A stretch of 64,000 nt of DNA, taken from the NCBI RefSeq assembly GCF_963921235.1, contig NC_086097.1, forward strand, positions 169,758,001-169,822,000. The letters are read 5' to 3'. Position 1 is the first letter of the stretch; every line of letters starts with the position of its first letter. This DNA comes from Mobula hypostoma. Its lineage: Eukaryota. Positions 29,220 to 62,010 of the stretch are shown in pieces. Made by a program: the position numbers and the translations under genes. The notes below the pieces were generated by a model. It saw nothing but the letters and a program-made list of their open reading frames with translations. It was not told where the DNA came from and did not search any database.

Positions 29220-29765
29220 ACACCTTCTTCCTCAGCTACATCCAGGCCCCAAACAGTCCTTCCTGCAAATCTGTAGGGGTCATTTACTGCATCCGGTGCT
29301 TCTCATGTGGCCTCCTTTACATTGGTGAGATCCAACGTAGATTGGGGGATCACCTTGTTGAACAGCTTTGCTCCACGTGCAACAAATAGGATTTCCTGGT
29401 AGCCAACCATTTTAGTTCCAATCCCCACTCCCATTCTGATGTCAATTTATAGTCTCCTCTACTGCCACGATGAGGTCACTCTCAATTTGGAGGAGCAGTA
29501 CTTCATATTCCATCTGGGTAGCCTCCCATTTCAGCCCCTCTCCTCCACCCACCTGGCTTCACCTATCACCTTCTAGCTTGTACTTTTCCTTCCCCCATCT
29601 TTCTTATTCTGCCTTCTTCCCCTTCCTATCCATTCCCATGAAGGGTCTTAGCTCGAAATGTCGACTGATTATTCCTTTCCATAGATGCTGCTTAAGCTGC
29701 TGAGTTCCTCCAGCACTTTGTGTGTGTTATTCTGGATTTCCAACATCTGCACAGACTCTTGTGTT
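29220..29765 (+). mobile_element. Penelope-like element 3' fragment with GIY-YIG endonuclease remnant
   Basis: GVIYCIRCFSCGLLYIGEIQRRLGDH, VANHF, then terminal repeat with degenerate hammerhead motif. Confidence 0.85.
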
Positions 29766-29789
29766 CATGGTCTGAGCCTTCTCCTAAGA

Positions 29790-49269: not shown

Positions 49270-50060
49270 ACAAGGGAATTGGTTGTTGACTTCAGAAGGA
49301 GTAGCGGACTGCATGACTCAATTTACATCGGTGGTGTGTAAGTGGAACAGGTCAAAAGCTTTAAGTTCCTTGGGGTCAGTATCACAAATGACCTGACTTG
49401 GTCCAACCAAGCAGAGTCCACTGCCAAGAAGGCCCACCAGCGCCTTTACTTCCTGAGAAAACTGAAGAAATTTGGCCTGTCCCCTAAAACACTCACTAAT
49501 TTTTATAGATGCACCGTAGAAAGCATTCTTCTAGGGTGCATCACAACCTGGTATGGAAGTTGTCCTGTCCAAGACCGGAAGAAGCTGCAGAAGATCGTGA
49601 ACACAGCCCAGCACATCACACAAACCAATCTTCCATCCTTGGACTCACTTTACACTGCACGCTGTCGGAGCAGTGCTGCCAGGATAATCAAGGACGCGAC
49701 CCACCCAGCCAACAGACTTTTCATCCCTCTTCCCTCTGGGAGAAGGCTCAGGAGCTTGAAGACTCGTACGGCCAGATTTGGGAACAGCTTCTTTCCAACT
49801 GTGATAAGACTGCTGAACGGATCCTGACCCGGATCTGGGCCGTACCCTCCAAATATCCGGACCTGCCTCTCGGTTTTTTTGCACTACCTTACTCTCAATT
49901 TTTCTATTTTCTATTTATGATTTGTAATTTAAATTTTTAATATTTACTATCAATTTGTAATCCAGGGAGAGGGAAGCGCAGAATCAAATATCACTATGAT
50001 GATTGTAAGTTCTAGTATCAATTGTTTGGCGACAATAAAGTATAAAGTATAAAGTAAAGT
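49270..50060 (+). mobile_element. Rex1/Babar-like LINE 3' fragment
   Basis: ORF 49342-49827 FKFLGV..KKAHQRLYFLRKL..FYRCTVESIL..NSFFPTVIRLLN; AATAAA + (aaagtat)n tail. Confidence 0.88.
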
Positions 50061-50324
50061 AATGGTAAGTGCGATGAGTATAGATGGTTGATTGATGGTC
50101 AGCTAGAGTATGACGGGCCTGTTTGTGCTGCATTACTCTGATCTGAACATTAGAATTAATTCTAATTTCATATTTAAATAGTTGAAATTACAACGATGTA
50201 AATCTGTGGGGTGTATAAAAAAACTACATATTGGATACTATTCTGTGATGCCTGGAATATAATTATGAATTTTTCATTTGTCTTTTGTCATTACAAAAAT
50301 GGTTTTGTGTTGTTTGTTTCACAG

Positions 50325-50358
50325 GGAACATTAAGCAAATCTGAATGGGAGGCTACAA
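50325..50358 (+). CDS. RNMT: RNMT coding exon 9 (GTLSKSEWEAT)
   Basis: Conserved GTLSKSEWEA; acceptor acag, donor gtaag; phase 0/1. Confidence 0.96.
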
Positions 50359-50581
50359 GTAAGAATAACAATTTAAAATTGGCTGATATGAAGTTGTAAA
50401 GTAAAAATCAGTTAAATTTGTATTGATATTCCTGGTTGTTTTCATACATCTAATTATAAAAGAGGATTGATCTTGGCTTTTCACTTAACTATAATTAATT
50501 TAGAACCTCACTGTAATAGATGTGCTGTCATTATTGTTGATCTGCTAATCTTTGCATGACACGACTGAAACTTTGTTATAG

Positions 50582-50600
50582 TGGCCACTAGATGGCACAG
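50582..50600 (+). promoter_or_regulatory. Candidate CTCF binding site
   Basis: TGGCCACTAGATGGCACAG fits the CCASYAGRKGGCR core; lies in non-repeat intronic DNA. Confidence 0.55.
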
Positions 50601-51106
50601 GTTCTGCGCACATGCTAGAACATTACAAAGTTAACTTGCCTCACAGGCCAATATTATTTTCCCTGAATATATAGTCTGCTTCGGACTTTAAATATTACAA
50701 AGCAAGCTATTGCAGGTACTGAAAATCTGAAGTAATAAATGTGCTGGAAATTATTAACACAATTAACAGTACATAGAGCAGAATCAGGTTTGTTAGCATT
50801 CTTATGACATGAAATCTGTTGCAGCAGAAACCTGATGGCAGAGGGGAGGAGCTGTTCCTGAAATGAGTGAGGGTTTTCAGGTCAATCCTGATGGGAATGG
50901 GCATGCCTTAGACAGTGAAGACCCTTAGTGATGGATGGGAACTTCTTAAGACACCAGTTCTTGAAGATATGCTTGAAAGTGAGGAGGGCTGTGGCTGTGA
51001 TGGAGTTGGCTGAGTCAAAGCTCTCTGCAGCTTCTTGCATTGGAGCTTCCATTCCAAGCTGTGAAGGCATACCAGGCAGAGAAACAGATAAAAGTTTTTG
51101 TAACAT

Positions 51107-51219
51107 ACATCAAAGTTGCTGGTGAACGCAGCAGGCCAGGCAGCATCTATAGGAAGAGGCGCAGTCGACGTTTCAGGCCGAGACCCTTCGTCAGGACTAA
51201 CTGAAGGAAGAGCTAAAAG
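51107..51219 (-). mobile_element. 113-bp PLE-derived insertion with 21-bp TSD
   Basis: agataaaagtttttgtaacat repeated exactly at 51086-51106 and 51220-51240. Confidence 0.9.
51162..51199 (-). ncRNA. Minimal type I hammerhead ribozyme motif (PLE-type)
   Basis: Minus strand UAGUC-CUGACGA-AGG(GUCUCGG)CCU-GAAAC-GUC-GACUG: intact core, stem I, stem II and palindromic ACGU in place of stem III. Confidence 0.8.
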
Positions 51220-51519
51220 AGATAAAAGTTTTTGTAACATCCTTTCATCAGAATTACAACCTTTTTATCACATAAAACTAGTGATCAGTTCAATGTTGGT
51301 TAGAGATGCATAAAGATTGTTCCTAGATTATGGTAGAGTTCCATTCCTGCCACTTGATTGTAACCAAGACAGCAATCCCCACTCTCCACCGCCCCCCGCC
51401 CCCGCACCTGATAAATCCACTCTGCTGTTCCCCAAATGGTAGTTCATGTGGAGGGGCTGAACATGTGTCAGATTTCATAATCTGAAGAGAAGCTCCACTC
51501 CAAATTAGCTTAGTTAAAA

Positions 51520-52400
51520 AGAAAATGGAGCAGTACAGCATAGGAACACATCACTCAGCCCACAGTATTGCGCTGAACCAGCTTAAAAGGTAAATCAAAA
51601 ACACCCTAAAGCTAATCCCTCCTACCTACACCATGCCCATATACCTTCAATGTCCATATCAAACCTTCCTTGCATTCATGTGCCTGTCCAAACGCCTTTA
51701 ATGTATTTGCCTCTACCTCCATACCAGGCAGCACATTCCAGACGTCCACGTCTCTAAAAACCTGCTCCTCACACTCCCCTTGAACCTACCAGCTCTCACC
51801 TTTAGTCCATGCCCTCTGGTATTGGACATTTCAACCCTGGGAAACTGATTCTGTCTGTCCACTTCATCTATGCCTTTCAAGATCCTATAAATCTCGATTA
51901 GATCTTCCCTCAGCCTCTGGCACTCCACAGAAAAGAACCCAAATTTATCCAGCCTCTTGTGATAGCACATGCTCTCTAAACTAGGCAGCATACTGGTAAA
52001 CATTTTCTGCACCCTCTCCAAAGCCTCAACATCTTCCCTATAGTGGGGTGACCAAAACTGTATGCTAAAGTCCACATGTGTCCTAACCAGAGTTTTATAA
52101 AGTTGCAACATGACCTCTTGACTTTTGAACTCAATGCCTGGACTTATAAAATCAAGCATTCCATAAACCTTTCCTGCCTTATTGACCTGTGTAGCCACTT
52201 TCAAGGAGCTGTGAACTTGGATCCCGAGATCTTTCTGCTCAGCAACACTGTAAAGGGTCTTACCATTAACAGTGTATTGTCTCCTTGTATTTGCCCCTCC
52301 AAGGTGCAACACCTCATATTTATCTGGGTTAAACTCCATCTGCCATTTCTCTGTCCATATCTGCAACTGATCTATGTCATACTGTATTCTTTGCCAGTCT
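51520..52400 (-). mobile_element. CR1 3' fragment
   Basis: ORF 51713-52366 WQMEFNPDK..LYKTLVR..QFWSPHY. Confidence 0.9.
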
Positions 52401-52860
52401 TGTGGAGAAAGAGGTAGAATGTGATACCTTCACTGTGAAACAGGTTACTCTAGTCTTGGACAAGAAAATGACAATTAGATGAAAGAAAGCAATGTTTGTA
52501 TCTATGCTCTATTGCTCTGACTTTATGATTGCATTTTATTGAACAAACTGCAGTTAAGTGGCCTCTTGGAGGGCACTCATTAAACAATAAACTGTTTTGA
52601 GTAGAGACAGTTATACTCTGTATTACCTCTGCTTGTGTTATCATTCTTGCTCCTACCCCTTCCCCCAACCACTCACTCTGATCTCCTGTGCATATATATT
52701 GTAAAGTTTGAAGTGACGTAACACCTTTCCAAGATCAGTGTACTTCATTGTATTAGAGATGAGGAACAGAGTCAAAGGTTTGTGAAAATACTGCCATCCA
52801 CTGGCTGTGCAATCATTGTTTTATTAGAACCAGAGTAAAATCCTTATACTTTCTTCCTAG

Positions 52861-52898
52861 GTATATACTTGGTGTTTGCATTTGAGAAACAACCATAA
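52861..52898 (+). CDS. RNMT: RNMT coding exon 10 (SIYLVFAFEKQP-stop)
   Basis: Conserved C-terminal YLVFAFEK; acceptor ctag; TAA at 52896-52898. Confidence 0.96.
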
Positions 52899-54944: not shown

Positions 54945-57260
54945 CATGAGAAATTCTGCAGATGTTGGAAATCCAAAGCAACACACACAAAATGCTGGAG
55001 GAACTCAGCAGGCCAGGCAACATCTGTGGAAATGAATAAACGGTTGATGTTTTGGGCTGAGAACCTTCAGGACTGGAAAGGAAGGGGGAAAACACCAGAA
55101 TGAAAAGATGGGGGGGGGGTGGAAGGAGGATAGCTAGAAAGTGATAGGTGAGCTAGGTGGGTAGGAAAGGTAAAGGGCTGGAGAGGAAGAAATCTGATGG
55201 GAGATGAAAGTAGACCATAGGAGAAAGGGAAGGAGGAGGGGACCCAGTGAGAGATGACAGGCAGTTGAGAAGAGGTAAGAGGCCAGATTGGGGAATAGAA
55301 GGAGGGGGAGGGAATTTTCTTTAATCAGAAAGGGAAATCAATATTCATGCCAACAGGTTGGAGGCTACCCAGATGGAATATAAGGTGTTTCTCCTCCACC
55401 CCGAGGGTGGCCTCATCGTGGCACAAGTGGAGGCCATGGACCAACGTGGTGGAACAGGAATGGGAATCAGGCCGGGAGGTTCTGTGTTTGCCGAGTGGAG
55501 CGGAGGTGCTCTCTGAAGCAGTCCCTCAACTTAAGACGGTTCTTATCAATGTAAAGGAGCTTGCCTTACCTCTCGGGGTAGCTATGGGCCCAGACGAGCC
55601 CGCCTTTTTGTTGGCTACACAGAACAGTCCGTGTTCCAACTCTTCCTCTTCCTCTGCTGTATTGACTGCACTTGTGCTGCTTCATGCACCCATGCTGAGC
55701 TTGTCAATTTCATCAACTTCACTTCCAACTTCCACCCTGCCCTTAAATTCACTTGGTCCATTTCTGATACCTCCTATCCGTTGATCTCTCTATGTCTCCA
55801 TCTCTGGAGATAAACTGTTGACTGACATTTTTCATAAACCTACCAATTCCCACGATTATCTTGACTATATCTTTTCCCACCCTGTCGCTTGTAAAAATAC
55901 TTCTCCTTTTTCTTAGTTCCTTTGTCTGCCTCATCTGTTCCGAGGATGTGACTTTCTATTTGGGGACTTCAGAAATGTTCTTCAAAGAACAGGGTTTCCC
56001 TTCCTCACTTAAGGCGCTGTCCTCACCTCCATCTTCTCCATTACCCGAACATTGAGCTCACCCTATCTTCCTCCCTCCGGAACGGTGACAATGATTTTCT
56101 TGTCCTTACCTGCCACCCCATCAGCCTCCGCACCCAACATAATTCTCTGCAATATCTGTCTTCTCTAAAAGGATTCTACCACAAAACATACCTTTACCTT
56201 GCCTCCTCTTCCCGCAGGGATCACTCCCTCCCTCTGTGATTCCGTTGTCCATTCATCCCTCCTCTCTAACTTCCCTCTCGGCTGGTAACCCTGCGAGTGG
56301 CCAAAGTGCTGCACCTGCCCCTTCACTCCTCCCTTTCCTCCATTCAGGGCCCCAAACAGAACTATCAGGTGAGGCAACACTTCACATGCGAATCTGCTGG
56401 GGTCGTTGATTGCGTCTGATGCTTCTGATGCAGCTCCTCTACATTGGTGAGACCCGTCGTCAATTGGGGGACTGCTTTGTTGAGCTCCATTGCTCCATCC
56501 ACCAAAAGTGGAATTTCCCGGTGGCCAAACATTTTAATTCTCATTCACAGTCCCGTTCGGACATGTCGGTGCACGGCCTCCTCCTGTTCTACAATGAGAC
56601 CATACTCAGGGTGGAGGGGCAACATCCTATATTCTGTCTGGGTAGCCTCCAAACTAATAGCATGAATATTGATATCTTCCAACGAGAAGAATTTCCCTCC
56701 CCCTCCCCTCCTCTTCTATTCCTCTGGCCTCCCATCTCTTCTCAAATGCCTATCACCTCACCCTGGGTTTCTGGGTCTGCCCACCTTCCCTTTCTCCTAT
56801 GGTTCACTCTCCTATCAGATTCTTCCTCCAACACTCACAACATGCTGGAGGAACTCAGCAGGTCAGGCAGCATCCGTGGGAAAGATCGGTCAACGTTTTG
56901 GGCCTTCTCTCTTCAGTCCTGACGAAGGGTTCCGGCCGGAATCGTCGCCCCATCTTTTCCACGGATGCTGCCCGACCTGCTGAGTTCCTCCAGCGTGTTG
57001 TGAGTGTTGCTTTGACCCCAGCATCTGCAGATTATTTTGTGATTAAGATTCTTCCTCCAGCCTTTTACCTTTCCTACACATCTGGCTTCACCTATCACCT
57101 TCTAGCTATCCTTTCCCTCTCCTCACCTTTTTATTCTGGCATCTTTCCCCTTCCTTTCCACTCCTGATGAAGGGTCTCAGCCTGAAATATCAACTGTTTA
57201 TTCATTTCCATAGATGCTGCCTGACCTGCTGAGTTCTTCCAGCATTTTGTGTGTGTTGAT
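54945..57260 (+). mobile_element. Penelope-like element with inverted 5' segment
   Basis: 54945-~55560 is the reverse complement of the 3' region; then + strand GVAMG, NFHPALKFTWSISD, LLYIGETRRQLGD..VAKHFN and terminal repeat. Confidence 0.85.
56831..57045. mobile_element. Palindromic PLE mini-element nested in a PLE, 14-bp TSD
   Basis: agattcttcctcca at 56817-56830 and 57046-57059; inverted arms; central CTGACGA..GAATCGTC. Confidence 0.85.
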
Positions 57261-59359: not shown

Positions 59360-62010
59360 AAACACAAAAAAATCTGCAGACGTTGGAAATCCAAGCAACA
59401 CACACAAAATGCTGGAGGAACTCAGCTGGCCAGGCGACATCTATGGGAAAAAGTACAGCCGATTCCTTCGCCGTGCCTACTTCTTTGACAAGGACTCTCC
59501 ACCCCACAGCGATGGCCCCTTCTCCCGTCTACAACCCTCCTCCTCTTCCTGGACGTCTCCAGACCGAGACCCCTGTTGCCGCTGACTCCATCCTTGACCG
59601 ACAGCACCTCCAGCTGGGATCCATGCGCTGCCCGTCTCTCCTTCCCCCGCTAGCACTCTGAAATCCCACGTCTCTCAAGTCCCACCGCCAACTTTTAGGT
59701 CCTCGGAAACTCCGTCTTCCTCTCACCCCACCTTCCCTGAACACTCCAACCCTCCCCTCTCCTCTGACACTACCTACACCCTTCCCCCCTCTGATCCCAG
59801 CTCTCATCCATGCCGGATCTTCTCCATCCCCTCCAACCTTCCCCTCACTGAGGCAGAATGTTCTGTCATCAGTAAGAGCCTCACCTTTGTCCCCGTGTCC
59901 ACACTTCAGCGAGTTCCGTGCTCGCCATGAAGCTGAGCTCTTCTTCTGGCACTGTCTCCGAGCCTACTTCTTTGGCAAGGACTCCCCACCCCGCACCGAT
60001 GACCCCTTTTCCCGTCTTCAACCCTCCTCCTCTTCCTGGACACCTGGCTCTGGATCTTTTCATTACCAACAGCTGACAAGACGTCAACTGTCTCGACTTC
60101 ACCACTCCTCTCTCCAATCCTAACCTCACTCTGTCTGAACACACTGCTCTCCTCTGTCTTTGCTCCAATCCTAACCTCATCATCAAACCTGCAGACTGGG
60201 GGTGGGGGGTGCTGTAGTAGTCTGGCAGACTGACTTCTACCTTGCTGAGGCCCAGCAACAACTGTCAGACACCTCCTCTTATTTACCCCTCGAACAAGAT
60301 CCCTCTAAGGAGCACCAGGCCATTGTCTCCCACACCGACTTTATTAGTTCTGGGCACCTCCCATCCTCTGTCACCAACCTCATCATTCCCTTACCCCGCA
60401 CCTTCTGTTTCTACCTCCTACAAACCTGCCTGTCCAGATAGACCCATTGTTTCAGCTCATTCCTGCCCCACTGAACTCTTACTTGCATACCTCGACTCTG
60501 TTTTATCCCCCCGGTTCAGTCCCTTCCTACCTTATACGTGACACTTCACACAATCTTGACCTTTTCAATGATTTCAATTTCCCTGGCCTCCATCATCTTA
60601 TTTTCACTATGGATATCCAGTCCCTATTTACCTCCATACCCCACCAGGAAGGCCTCAAAGCTCTCCTCTGTCTAGCAGACATTTAATAATTTTTCTTTTG
60701 GTTCCTCCCACTTCCTTCAAACAAGAGGTGTAGCCATGGGCACTCACATGGGTCCTAGCTATGTCTGCCTTTTTGTTGACTAACGGAACAGTCTACGTTC
60801 CAAGCCTACACTGGTGTCACTCCCCCACCTTTCCTACATTGACCACTGCATTGGTGCTGCGTCCTGCACCCAAGCCAAGCTCGTCAACTTCATCAACTTT
60901 GCCTCCAACTTCCACCCTGCCCTCAAATTTAACTGGTCCATTTCTGACACCTCCTTCCCCTTTTTCAATCTCTCTGTCTCTATCTCTGGGACAGCTTATC
61001 CACTGATACCTATTACAAACCCACTACCTGGTTTATACCTCTTCCCACCCTGTTACTTGTAAAAACACCATCCCCTTCTCTCAATACCCCCATCTCCACC
61101 GTATCTGCTCTCAGGAGGAGGCTTTTCATTCCAGAACGAAGGAGATGTCCTCCTCCTTCAAAGAAAGGGGCTTCCCTTCCTCTACCATCAGTACTGCCCT
61201 CAGCTGCATCTCTTCCATTTCACACATGTCTTCTCTCACCCCATCCTCCTGCCACCACGCCAGGGATAGGGTTCTTCTTGTCCTCCCCTACCACCTCACC
61301 AACCTCTGTGTCCAGCACATAATTCACTGTAACTTCCACCATCTTCAGTGGGATTTCACCACCAAGCACATCTTTCCCTTGCTCCCCTCCCCAACTTTAT
61401 GCCTTCCGTAAGGATCACTCCCTTTGCAACTCCCTTGACCAGTCGTCCCTCCTGGCTCTTATCCTTGCAAGTGGAACAAGTTGCCCCTACACCTGCCCCT
61501 ACATCTCCTCCCTCACTACCATTCAGGGCTCCTATCAGTCCTTCAAGGTGAGGTGACACTTCACCTGTGAGTCTGTGGGGTCATACACACTGTGTCTGGT
61601 GTTCCCGGTGTGACCTCTTGTATATAGATGAGACCCAATGTAGATTGAGAGACCGCTTCGCCAAGCACCCATGCTCCATCTGCCAGAAAAAGTGGGATCT
61701 CCTAGTGGCCTCCTCTGCTGTTGTGATGAGGCGACACTCAGGTTGGCAGAGGAACACCTTTTCTTCTCTCTGGATAGCCTCCAAAGAGATCGCGTGAACA
61801 TTGATTTCTCAAACTTCTGGTAATGTGCCCCACCCCTCTATTCCCCACCCCCTTTTCTCTCTCTCTCCTTATCTCTTTGGCTGCCCATCACCTCCCTCTG
61901 TGCTCCTCCCCCTTTTCTTTCTTCCATGGCCTTCTGTCCTCTCCTATTAGATTCCCCCTTCTCCAGCCCTGTATCTCTTCCCAATCAACTTCCCAGCTCT
62001 TTATTTCACC
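59360..62010 (+). mobile_element. Long decayed Penelope-like element (RT + GIY-YIG)
   Basis: IIKPAD..GAVVVW, RPIVSA, IRDT, FTMDIQSLFTSIPH, QTRGVAMG, YIDHCIG, HPALKF, CSRCDLLYIDETQCRLRDRFAKH; preceded by inverted terminal-repeat piece 59360-59458. Confidence 0.88.

What the first reader, a model, noticed from the sequence alone, without database searches (positions are those of the whole stretch)
51086..51240. Intact minimal hammerhead ribozyme in a 113-bp insertion with a perfect 21-bp target-site duplication
Seen: 51107-51219 is flanked by an exact 21-bp direct repeat. Its minus strand reads UAGUC CUGACGA AGG-gucucgg-CCU GAAAC GUC GACUG. This gives both conserved hammerhead boxes, a 5-bp stem I (one U-G), a 3-bp stem II and a GUC cleavage triplet, with stem III reduced to the palindrome ACGU. 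CpGs are not decayed, unlike in sibling copies. Established: Penelope-like elements carry minimal type I hammerheads that lack a stable stem III and are thought to cleave as dimers. Inference: this is a young, possibly polymorphic insertion that is little more than a ribozyme cassette, lying antisense in RNMT intron 9.
Basis: partly seen in the sequence, partly recalled or inferred. Interest (0 to 1): 0.72.

Follow-up and report, generated by a model that had tools for sequence, protein, structure and literature searches.

The report
Young truncated Penelope insertion with hammerhead
A 113-base scrap of a very common jumping gene, carrying an already-described small self-cutting RNA motif, recently landed backwards in a gene's intron in one ray-like fish species; it is real and cleanly datable but ordinary in kind.

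Summary
51107-51219 (113 nt) is flanked by an exact 21-nt repeat, and three related organisms carry the empty site (134 nt skipped, repeat single), so this is a true target-site duplication and a young, lineage-specific insertion. The minus strand holds the window's only descriptor-passing minimal type I hammerhead (1 hit; 0.01 per shuffle). Corrections: stem II is better read as unpaired A plus 4 bp (G10.1·U11.1), the published Penelope register; and the insert is not a stand-alone cassette, because family contigs continue upstream of its 5' end. It is the 5'-truncated, tail-less 3' end of a very high-copy Penelope-like retroelement, antisense in RNMT's last coding intron. Polymorphism was not seen (one same-species DNA run: filled allele only). 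Cleavage is untested; folding predicts an upstream hairpin hiding the CUGACGA box. One lead: U11.1 replaces the conserved C in most family sequence of this species and its closest relative, but not in two more distant ones. This scan already reported the same family elsewhere in this genome. New member of a known kind; low interest.

The parts
51086..51106 (+). Target-site duplication, copy 1 (21 nt, 81% A+T); lies at the element's 3' end
   Evidence: Exact match to 51220-51240; single in empty-site contigs of organisms B, C, D; A+T content
51220..51240 (+). Target-site duplication, copy 2; lies at the element's truncated 5' end. Its first 4 nt also match the family's upstream continuation, so the nick stagger is 17-21 nt
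   Evidence: table 7 loose-end consensus behind 51215; stagger range is inference
51107..51219 (-). 113-nt insertion: 5'-truncated, tail-less 3' end (pseudo-LTR region) of a Penelope-like element
51162..51199 (-). Minimal type I hammerhead motif (38 nt)
   Evidence: Only descriptor hit in window, 0.01 expected; fits min-HHR description in PMC4209133
51195..51199 (-). Stem I, 5' strand (pairs with 51162-51166; outer pair U-G, C-G in 3 siblings)
51188..51194 (-). Core box C3-A9 (CUGACGA)
51187..51187 (-). Unpaired A between positions 9 and 10.1, a hallmark of Penelope min-HHRs
   Evidence: Register favoured by folding; feature described in PMC4209133
51175..51186 (-). Stem II: 4 bp with a 4-nt loop; first pair G10.1 (51186) with U11.1 (51175) instead of C
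   Evidence: Pair probability 0.87-0.97 in isolated motif; allele shares, computed
51167..51174 (-). G12-A13-A14-A15.1, palindrome ACGU (51171-51168) in place of stem III, and GUC triplet; predicted cut between 51167 and 51166
   Evidence: cut site by established hammerhead numbering, not measured
51162..51166 (-). Stem I, 3' strand
51183..51213 (-). Predicted competing hairpin that pairs the CUGACGA box and half of stem II with the upstream 5' part of the insert
   Evidence: MFE of the insert -26.4 versus -16.8 kcal/mol with the hammerhead fold forced
50325..50358 (+). RNMT penultimate coding exon (upstream host exon)
   Evidence: AG/GT boundaries and translation; gene identity from other exons
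52861..52898 (+). RNMT last coding exon up to the stop (downstream host exon)
55646..57258 (+). Older, longer relative: decayed Penelope RT-thumb/GIY-YIG coding remnant (55646-56727) followed by 3' UTR and a decayed copy of the same hammerhead-bearing end (57164-57258)
   Evidence: tblastn with P0001, E 1e-35 to 3e-37; GIY-YIG clusters in Atlas, score 0.93; P0001 has GIY-YIG E 4.6e-4, below Pfam cut-off

Best explanation
A recent, species-lineage-specific insertion of a Penelope-like element (PLE) made by target-primed reverse transcription and truncated after about 113 nt. Shown: empty site in relatives, duplicated target, element continues upstream in other copies, 3' end falls in the tail-less class of ends. 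Inferred steps: (1) the GIY-YIG/RT protein of an active subfamily nicked an 81% A+T target on both strands 17-21 nt apart; (2) the nick after 51106 primed cDNA synthesis internally on the element RNA at the proximal (tail-less) start, possibly helped by about 7 nt of primer-template pairing; (3) synthesis stopped just past the hammerhead and the cDNA end was joined to the other side through 4-7 nt of microhomology; (4) fill-in made the duplication. The hammerhead came along because it sits about 55-92 nt from the 3' end of every copy. The RNA template was not cut at the ribozyme site, since the insert spans it. At this locus the motif is antisense to RNMT, single, and predicted to be masked by a hairpin, so it is most likely a silent passenger.
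For: Empty site with 134-nt skip in 3 of 3 other organisms laid; filled junction contigs with 0 differences in the same species. 12,590-69,417 contigs per run lay on the stretch, nearly all depth on the insert, i.e. a very high-copy family (not a copy number). Family continues past 51212/51215 (table 7). In the window 11 related 3' ends fall into two classes, 5 tail-less (including this one) and 6 with about 35-40 nt more, matching the optional 30-40 bp PLE tail (PMC8557442; PMC11167929). Three head-to-head inverted pairs, two with 14-nt flanking repeats, match described PLE structures. Older copies abut RT/GIY-YIG remnants. Motif fits min-HHR: short helix I, unpaired base before 10.1, palindromic 15.2-16.2. 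De novo PLE insertions in Chlamydomonas have median length 128 bp from 5' truncation (PMC9977147 passage). Hammerhead cleavage was not needed for insertion in vitro and uncut RNA was the main template (PMC11167929).
Against: No full-length member of this exact subfamily was seen: the window holds none (the subfamily 20-mer occurs once), no whole genome was available, and the link to the ORF rests on siblings about 75-84% alike. The window's ORF pieces gave 0 Pfam hits in 3 of 3 and 6 of 6 translations. 747 loose-end rows were not shown, so the distribution of 5' ends is not counted. The TSD (21 nt) is longer than the 8-10 bp in rotifer PLEs, and no 5'-ATT-3' lies at either inferred nick, unlike the anole element's preference. 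The 3' primer pairing is one case and contrasts with the non-homologous start reported in vitro.
Confidence: 0.88

Rival explanations
1. A distinct non-autonomous mini-element (SINE- or retrozyme-like ribozyme cassette) with a defined 5' end, mobilised in trans by PLE proteins.
For: Short, young, clean TSD, hammerhead intact. Loose ends also pile up at 51196-51198 in all four runs, near the hammerhead's 5' edge. PLE pLTR sequences can be moved in trans (PMC3846280 passage).
Against: The 51196-51198 loose ends are where the main sibling family diverges from this subfamily; their consensus begins like the main family's upstream sequence. Loose ends at 51212/51215 share one continuing sequence rather than diverse flanks. 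The 5' junction shows microhomology typical of truncation. No tandem repeats or canonical helix I/II as in metazoan retrozymes (170-400 nt units; PMC7229834 passages).
Confidence: 0.06
2. The insert was copied in by DNA repair (template capture or gene conversion from another genomic copy at a staggered break), not by retrotransposition.
For: Microhomology at both junctions; very many donor copies exist.
Against: The 3' end coincides with the family's recurrent tail-less end, polarity is 3'-anchored and 5'-truncated, and no foreign flanking DNA came with it.
Confidence: 0.04
3. The ribozyme has a function at this locus, for example cutting an antisense transcript or affecting RNMT processing.
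For: Core boxes intact; conserved intronic hammerheads exist in amniotes (PMC6155905 passage).
Against: Absent from three relatives, so no conservation; antisense to RNMT pre-mRNA; single copy of a motif described as inactive as a monomer; hammerhead pairs have probability <=0.01 in three longer contexts; 748 nt from the donor and 1,641 nt from the acceptor site.
Confidence: 0.02

Closest known systems
Minimal type I hammerheads (min-HHR) in the pseudo-LTRs of metazoan Penelope-like elements (Cervera and de la Pena 2014, PMC4209133; parts 1-2 of 4 of the text read)
   Same: Type I topology, 5-bp helix I, unpaired base between 9 and 10.1, palindromic 15.2-16.2 with no helix III, mostly dispersed single motifs from truncated PLEs; reported for Xena, Poseidon and Neptune of fishes.
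   Different: Helix II is 4 bp (7-8 bp in the Schistosoma families); the 'highly conserved' G10.1-C11.1 pair is G·U here. Cartilaginous fishes are not named in the parts read or in the searchable supplement text (figure images and one file not searchable).
Poseidon element of Anolis carolinensis (Frangieh et al. 2024, PMC11167929; parts 1-2 of 4 read)
   Same: Hammerhead near the 3' end, two internal RT starts giving an optional tail, AT-rich targets nicked on both strands, uncut RNA used as template.
   Different: There the RT start lies in an AC-rich loop and is non-homologous to the target, with a 5'-ATT-3' nick preference; here the end lies in a UG-rich stretch with possible 7-nt primer pairing and no ATT at the inferred nicks. 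Clade (Poseidon versus others) was not tested by a tree.
De novo 5'-truncated PLE insertions in Chlamydomonas (PMC9977147; passages read)
   Same: Very short (median 128 bp), intronic, 3'-anchored insertions; variable TSDs.
   Different: Chlamys clade, microsatellite targets, mostly without canonical hammerheads.
Metazoan non-LTR retrozymes (Cervera and de la Pena 2020, PMC7229834; passages read)
   Same: Small non-coding unit with a type I hammerhead and a TSD longer than 4 bp.
   Different: Retrozymes are 170-400 nt tandem units with canonical hammerheads and circular RNAs; this is a single 113-nt piece with a minimal motif that continues into a longer element.

Membership tests
PLE minimal hammerhead (min-HHR) | Core boxes CUGANGA and GAAA with a UH cleavage site in type I order | tested here: met
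   CUGACGA, GAAA, GUC; 1 hit versus 0.01 by chance
PLE minimal hammerhead (min-HHR) | Short helix I (4-5 bp) | tested here: met
   5 bp, probabilities 0.55-0.98 in the isolated motif
PLE minimal hammerhead (min-HHR) | Unpaired nucleotide between 9 and 10.1 | tested here: met
   A51187 unpaired in the favoured register
PLE minimal hammerhead (min-HHR) | Palindromic 15.2-16.2, no stable helix III | tested here: met
   ACGU at 51171-51168
PLE minimal hammerhead (min-HHR) | G10.1-C11.1 pair (highly conserved trait, not part of the search descriptor per PMC4209133) | tested here: inconclusive
   This copy has G·U; the family has G-C in 20-76% of laid depth depending on organism and in 3 of 8 window copies, so the copy is a wobble variant of a G-C family
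PLE minimal hammerhead (min-HHR) | Compensatory changes in helices I and II among copies | tested here: inconclusive
   9 window copies, mostly decayed: 78% of cells paired versus 18-48% in slid controls, but covariation 0.102 not above shuffles (215 of 500 as high)
PLE minimal hammerhead (min-HHR) | Self-cleavage as dimer or with protein help | not testable with these tools
   Needs in vitro assay; all runs were contigs, which cannot show RNA ends
Penelope-like element (EN+) | RT plus C-terminal GIY-YIG ORF upstream of the hammerhead-bearing end | tested here: met
   For sibling copies at 55646-57258 and 29261-29767; not shown for this exact subfamily
Penelope-like element (EN+) | Optional 30-40 bp 3' tail | tested here: met
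   5 tail-less and 6 tailed of 11 3' ends
Penelope-like element (EN+) | 5' truncation and head-to-head inverted copies | tested here: met
   Three inverted pairs and scattered 5' ends in window; family continues upstream of insert
Penelope-like element (EN+) | Variable TSD at AT-rich target | tested here: met
   21 nt, 81% A+T, empty site in 3 organisms; 14-nt repeats at 2 of 8 sibling sites tested
Penelope-like element (EN+) | RT phylogeny placing it in a named clade | not tested
   No tree built
Metazoan non-LTR retrozyme | 170-400 nt tandem units with canonical type I hammerhead | tested here: not met
   Single 113-nt piece, no tandem array at the site, minimal motif
Rfam hammerhead families | Covariance-model match | tested here: not met
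   No hammerhead hit at E<=10 in 50000-52500

The most novel reading that the evidence does not exclude
The subfamily that has most recently amplified in this species and its closest relative carries a ribozyme-weakening change in its master copy (C11.1 to U, about 80% and 69% of laid depth versus 24% and 28% in two more distant organisms) plus an upstream hairpin that hides the catalytic box. If that variant cleaves poorly even as a dimer or with the element's protein, a vertebrate Penelope lineage has expanded massively after disabling its hammerhead, which would be genomic evidence that the ribozyme is a brake or passenger rather than a requirement, and datable empty-site insertions like this one make that testable.
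Probability: 0.2. Interest if true: 0.5.

Novelty: new member of a known kind. Interest (0 to 1): 0.22.

Why it matters
As it stands it is a clean, datable example of Penelope retrotransposition in a cartilaginous fish: empty site, long duplication and both junctions are readable, and it is a usable species-level presence/absence marker. It adds no new kind of element or ribozyme. What hammerheads do in Penelope elements is still called unclear in the literature read (PMC8557442 passage); the U11.1 subfamily shift is a natural variant with which to ask whether cleavage helps or hinders spread.

Tried and rejected
Rfam scan: no hammerhead match. Whole genome not held, so no genome-wide count of copy ends. 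Metagenome scan with a subfamily 20-mer gave 1 locus, L001, whose flanks are unrelated; treated as a chance match. Pfam on the window's decayed PLE ORF pieces: 0 of 3 and 0 of 6 translations hit. Overall fold stability of the motif or insert is not above shuffles (z -0.16 to 0.61). A modelled double hammerhead of two motifs scores -11.5 kcal/mol against -30.3 for an alternative dimer; the model ignores the non-canonical core, so this is no verdict on activity. Covariation among window copies not above shuffles. TSD search at 8 sibling sites: 2 with 14-nt repeats, 6 without a convincing one. My early idea that U11.1 is private CpG decay of this copy was rejected: decay at the C17 CpG is only 7-22% of depth while non-C at 11.1 is 69-80% in organisms A and B. 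The paper on dimer cleavage of small PLE hammerheads (Lunse et al.) is not held; I saw only its citation and summary in the review PMC6765202. Literature searches for cartilaginous-fish PLE hammerheads: 0 papers and 1 irrelevant use of 'shark'; seen as listing only. These cover an open-access library only and do not show absence from print or from Repbase/Dfam.

Full report
Observation. The two repeats 51086-51106 and 51220-51240 are identical over exactly 21 nt and enclose 113 nt. The minus strand from 51199 to 51162 carries a 5-bp stem I, CUGACGA, stem II, GAAA, the palindrome ACGU and a GUC triplet, with the predicted cut between 51167 and 51166. A descriptor demanding both boxes and both helices finds only this site in the window, against 0.01 hits per dinucleotide shuffle (100 shuffles). 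Rfam has no matching model at E<=10. The host gene is RNMT on the + strand: 4 of 4 exon pieces tested hit PF03291. The insert lies antisense in the last coding intron, 50359-52860; the number 9 depends on a recalled exon count.

The duplication is real and the insertion is young. Of 24 runs listed I laid 4: one DNA run of the same species (organism A) and one each of organisms B, C and D. B, C and D each have one contig that crosses the site and skips exactly 134 nt, with the repeat single. Flank divergence is about 1.9%, 6.1% and 8.1%. In organism A two contigs span the left and right junctions with 0 differences at depth 16.1 and 15.5, and no empty-site joint is listed. So the insertion post-dates the A/B split or was polymorphic in their ancestor. 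Polymorphism today is not shown: one sample, contigs drop rare variants, and that run may be the assembly's source.

It is the end of a long, abundant element. Between 12,590 and 69,417 contigs per run were laid, with nearly all depth on the insert (the tool warns that this is no copy number). In 3 of 4 runs the listed loose ends at 51212/51215 share one continuing upstream sequence (agreement 0.67-0.73), so the family is longer than this copy; 747 rows were not shown. The window holds about ten older relatives with scattered 5' ends. Their 3' ends fall into two classes, 5 tail-less and 6 with about 35-40 extra bases, of 11. Three are head-to-head inverted pairs, two with 14-nt flanking repeats. 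High 5' truncation, inverted copies and an optional 30-40 bp tail are described PLE traits (PMC8557442, passages; PMC3846280, passages). The longer relatives run into coding remnants: a ray protein found with one of them (P0001, 72% identity) has a C-terminal GIY-YIG match (E 4.6e-4, just under Pfam's cut-off) and maps by tblastn to 55646-56727, 60829-61826 and 29261-29525; the Atlas returns GIY-YIG-bearing clusters at 0.93. The window's own decayed pieces gave no Pfam hit. The named homologues indicate a cartilaginous fish, probably a ray.

Mechanism. Shown: empty site, duplication, 3'-anchored and 5'-truncated structure. Inferred: the PLE endonuclease nicked an 81% A+T target on both strands; the 3' end after 51106 primed reverse transcription internally at the tail-less start. 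The last 7 target bases match the family's continuation at 5 of 7 positions, and both differences could form G·T wobbles; this is a single case. At the other junction the family's continuation shares 7 bases with the locus, 4 of them inside the repeat, so the stagger is 17-21 nt and attachment probably used microhomology, as noted for a rotifer PLE. The anole Poseidon protein nicks both strands of AT-rich DNA, starts internally at two sites that bound the tail, and uses uncut RNA; its hammerhead needs the protein and is dispensable for insertion in vitro (PMC11167929, parts 1-2 of 4). This insert spans the cut site, in agreement. Differences: no ATT at the inferred nicks, and a UG-rich rather than AC-rich start region. 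Length is ordinary: new PLE insertions in Chlamydomonas have a median of 128 bp (PMC9977147, passages).

The ribozyme. PLE minimal hammerheads have a short helix I, an unpaired base between 9 and 10.1, a conserved G10.1-C11.1 pair and palindromic 15.2-16.2; a single motif did not cleave and dimers cleaved weakly (PMC4209133, parts 1-2 of 4). Covariation among 9 window copies is not above shuffles. Single, antisense, unconserved and masked, the motif is most likely inert here. G10.1, the metal-binding base (PMC6961537, passages), is retained, so the wobble need not abolish activity; I found no measurement for G·U at this pair in the passages read.

One lead. At 51175 (position 11.1) the C form makes up 20% and 31% of laid depth in organisms A and B, but 76% and 72% in C and D, while decay at the C17 CpG is only 7-22%. 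U11.1 therefore looks like the master state of a subfamily that expanded in the A/B lineage. Caveats: counts in run X3 were capped, alignment to a U-bearing reference biases shares, depth sums are crude, and 3 of 8 old window copies also reached U by apparent decay.

Comparison and verdict. It works like, and on all descriptor features is, a PLE minimal hammerhead on a 5'-truncated PLE end; it fails the retrozyme test. Searches for PLE hammerheads in cartilaginous fishes found nothing relevant in the open library (listing only); supplement figures could not be searched, the Lunse paper was not held, and repeat databases were not available. Earlier notes of this scan report the same family many times in this genome (41 notes fit, 8 shown); I treat them as leads. 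Verdict: observation confirmed, interpretation partly supported, new member of a known kind, interest 0.22.

Noticed in passing
window:56817-57059: A younger head-to-head inverted pair of a different subfamily (8 CpGs kept) inserted into an older PLE 3' UTR, flanked by a 14-nt repeat (56817-56830 / 57046-57059); its hammerhead core is broken at 11.1 and 15.1.
   Followed up: partly
window:2407-2622: Inverted PLE end pair with one tailed and one tail-less end, flanked by an exact 14-nt repeat (2407-2420 / 2609-2622).
   Followed up: partly
window:59359-59460: A tailed PLE end whose 5' boundary falls close to the predicted hammerhead cut site; boundary is fuzzy and no TSD was found.
   Followed up: no
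window:51163 (organism D contigs): 70% of laid depth in organism D changes a stem I base; whether its partner at 51198 co-varies was not among the rows shown.
   Followed up: no
window:15366-18245: About 91 copies of a 30-nt C-rich tandem repeat just downstream of a GC-rich region, upstream of the RNMT exons located.
   Followed up: no
window:35838-36786: Two minus-strand ORF pieces that by eye resemble a decayed Tigger/pogo-type DDE transposase (recalled resemblance, not tested).
   Followed up: no
window:8834-11385: Minus-strand ORF pieces resembling an L1/Tx1-type LINE ORF2; many CR1-like remnants elsewhere (by eye, not tested).
   Followed up: no
window:51035-51036: Organisms C and D have 9 extra bases here relative to A, a small deletion or insertion in the flank (table 4).
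   Followed up: no
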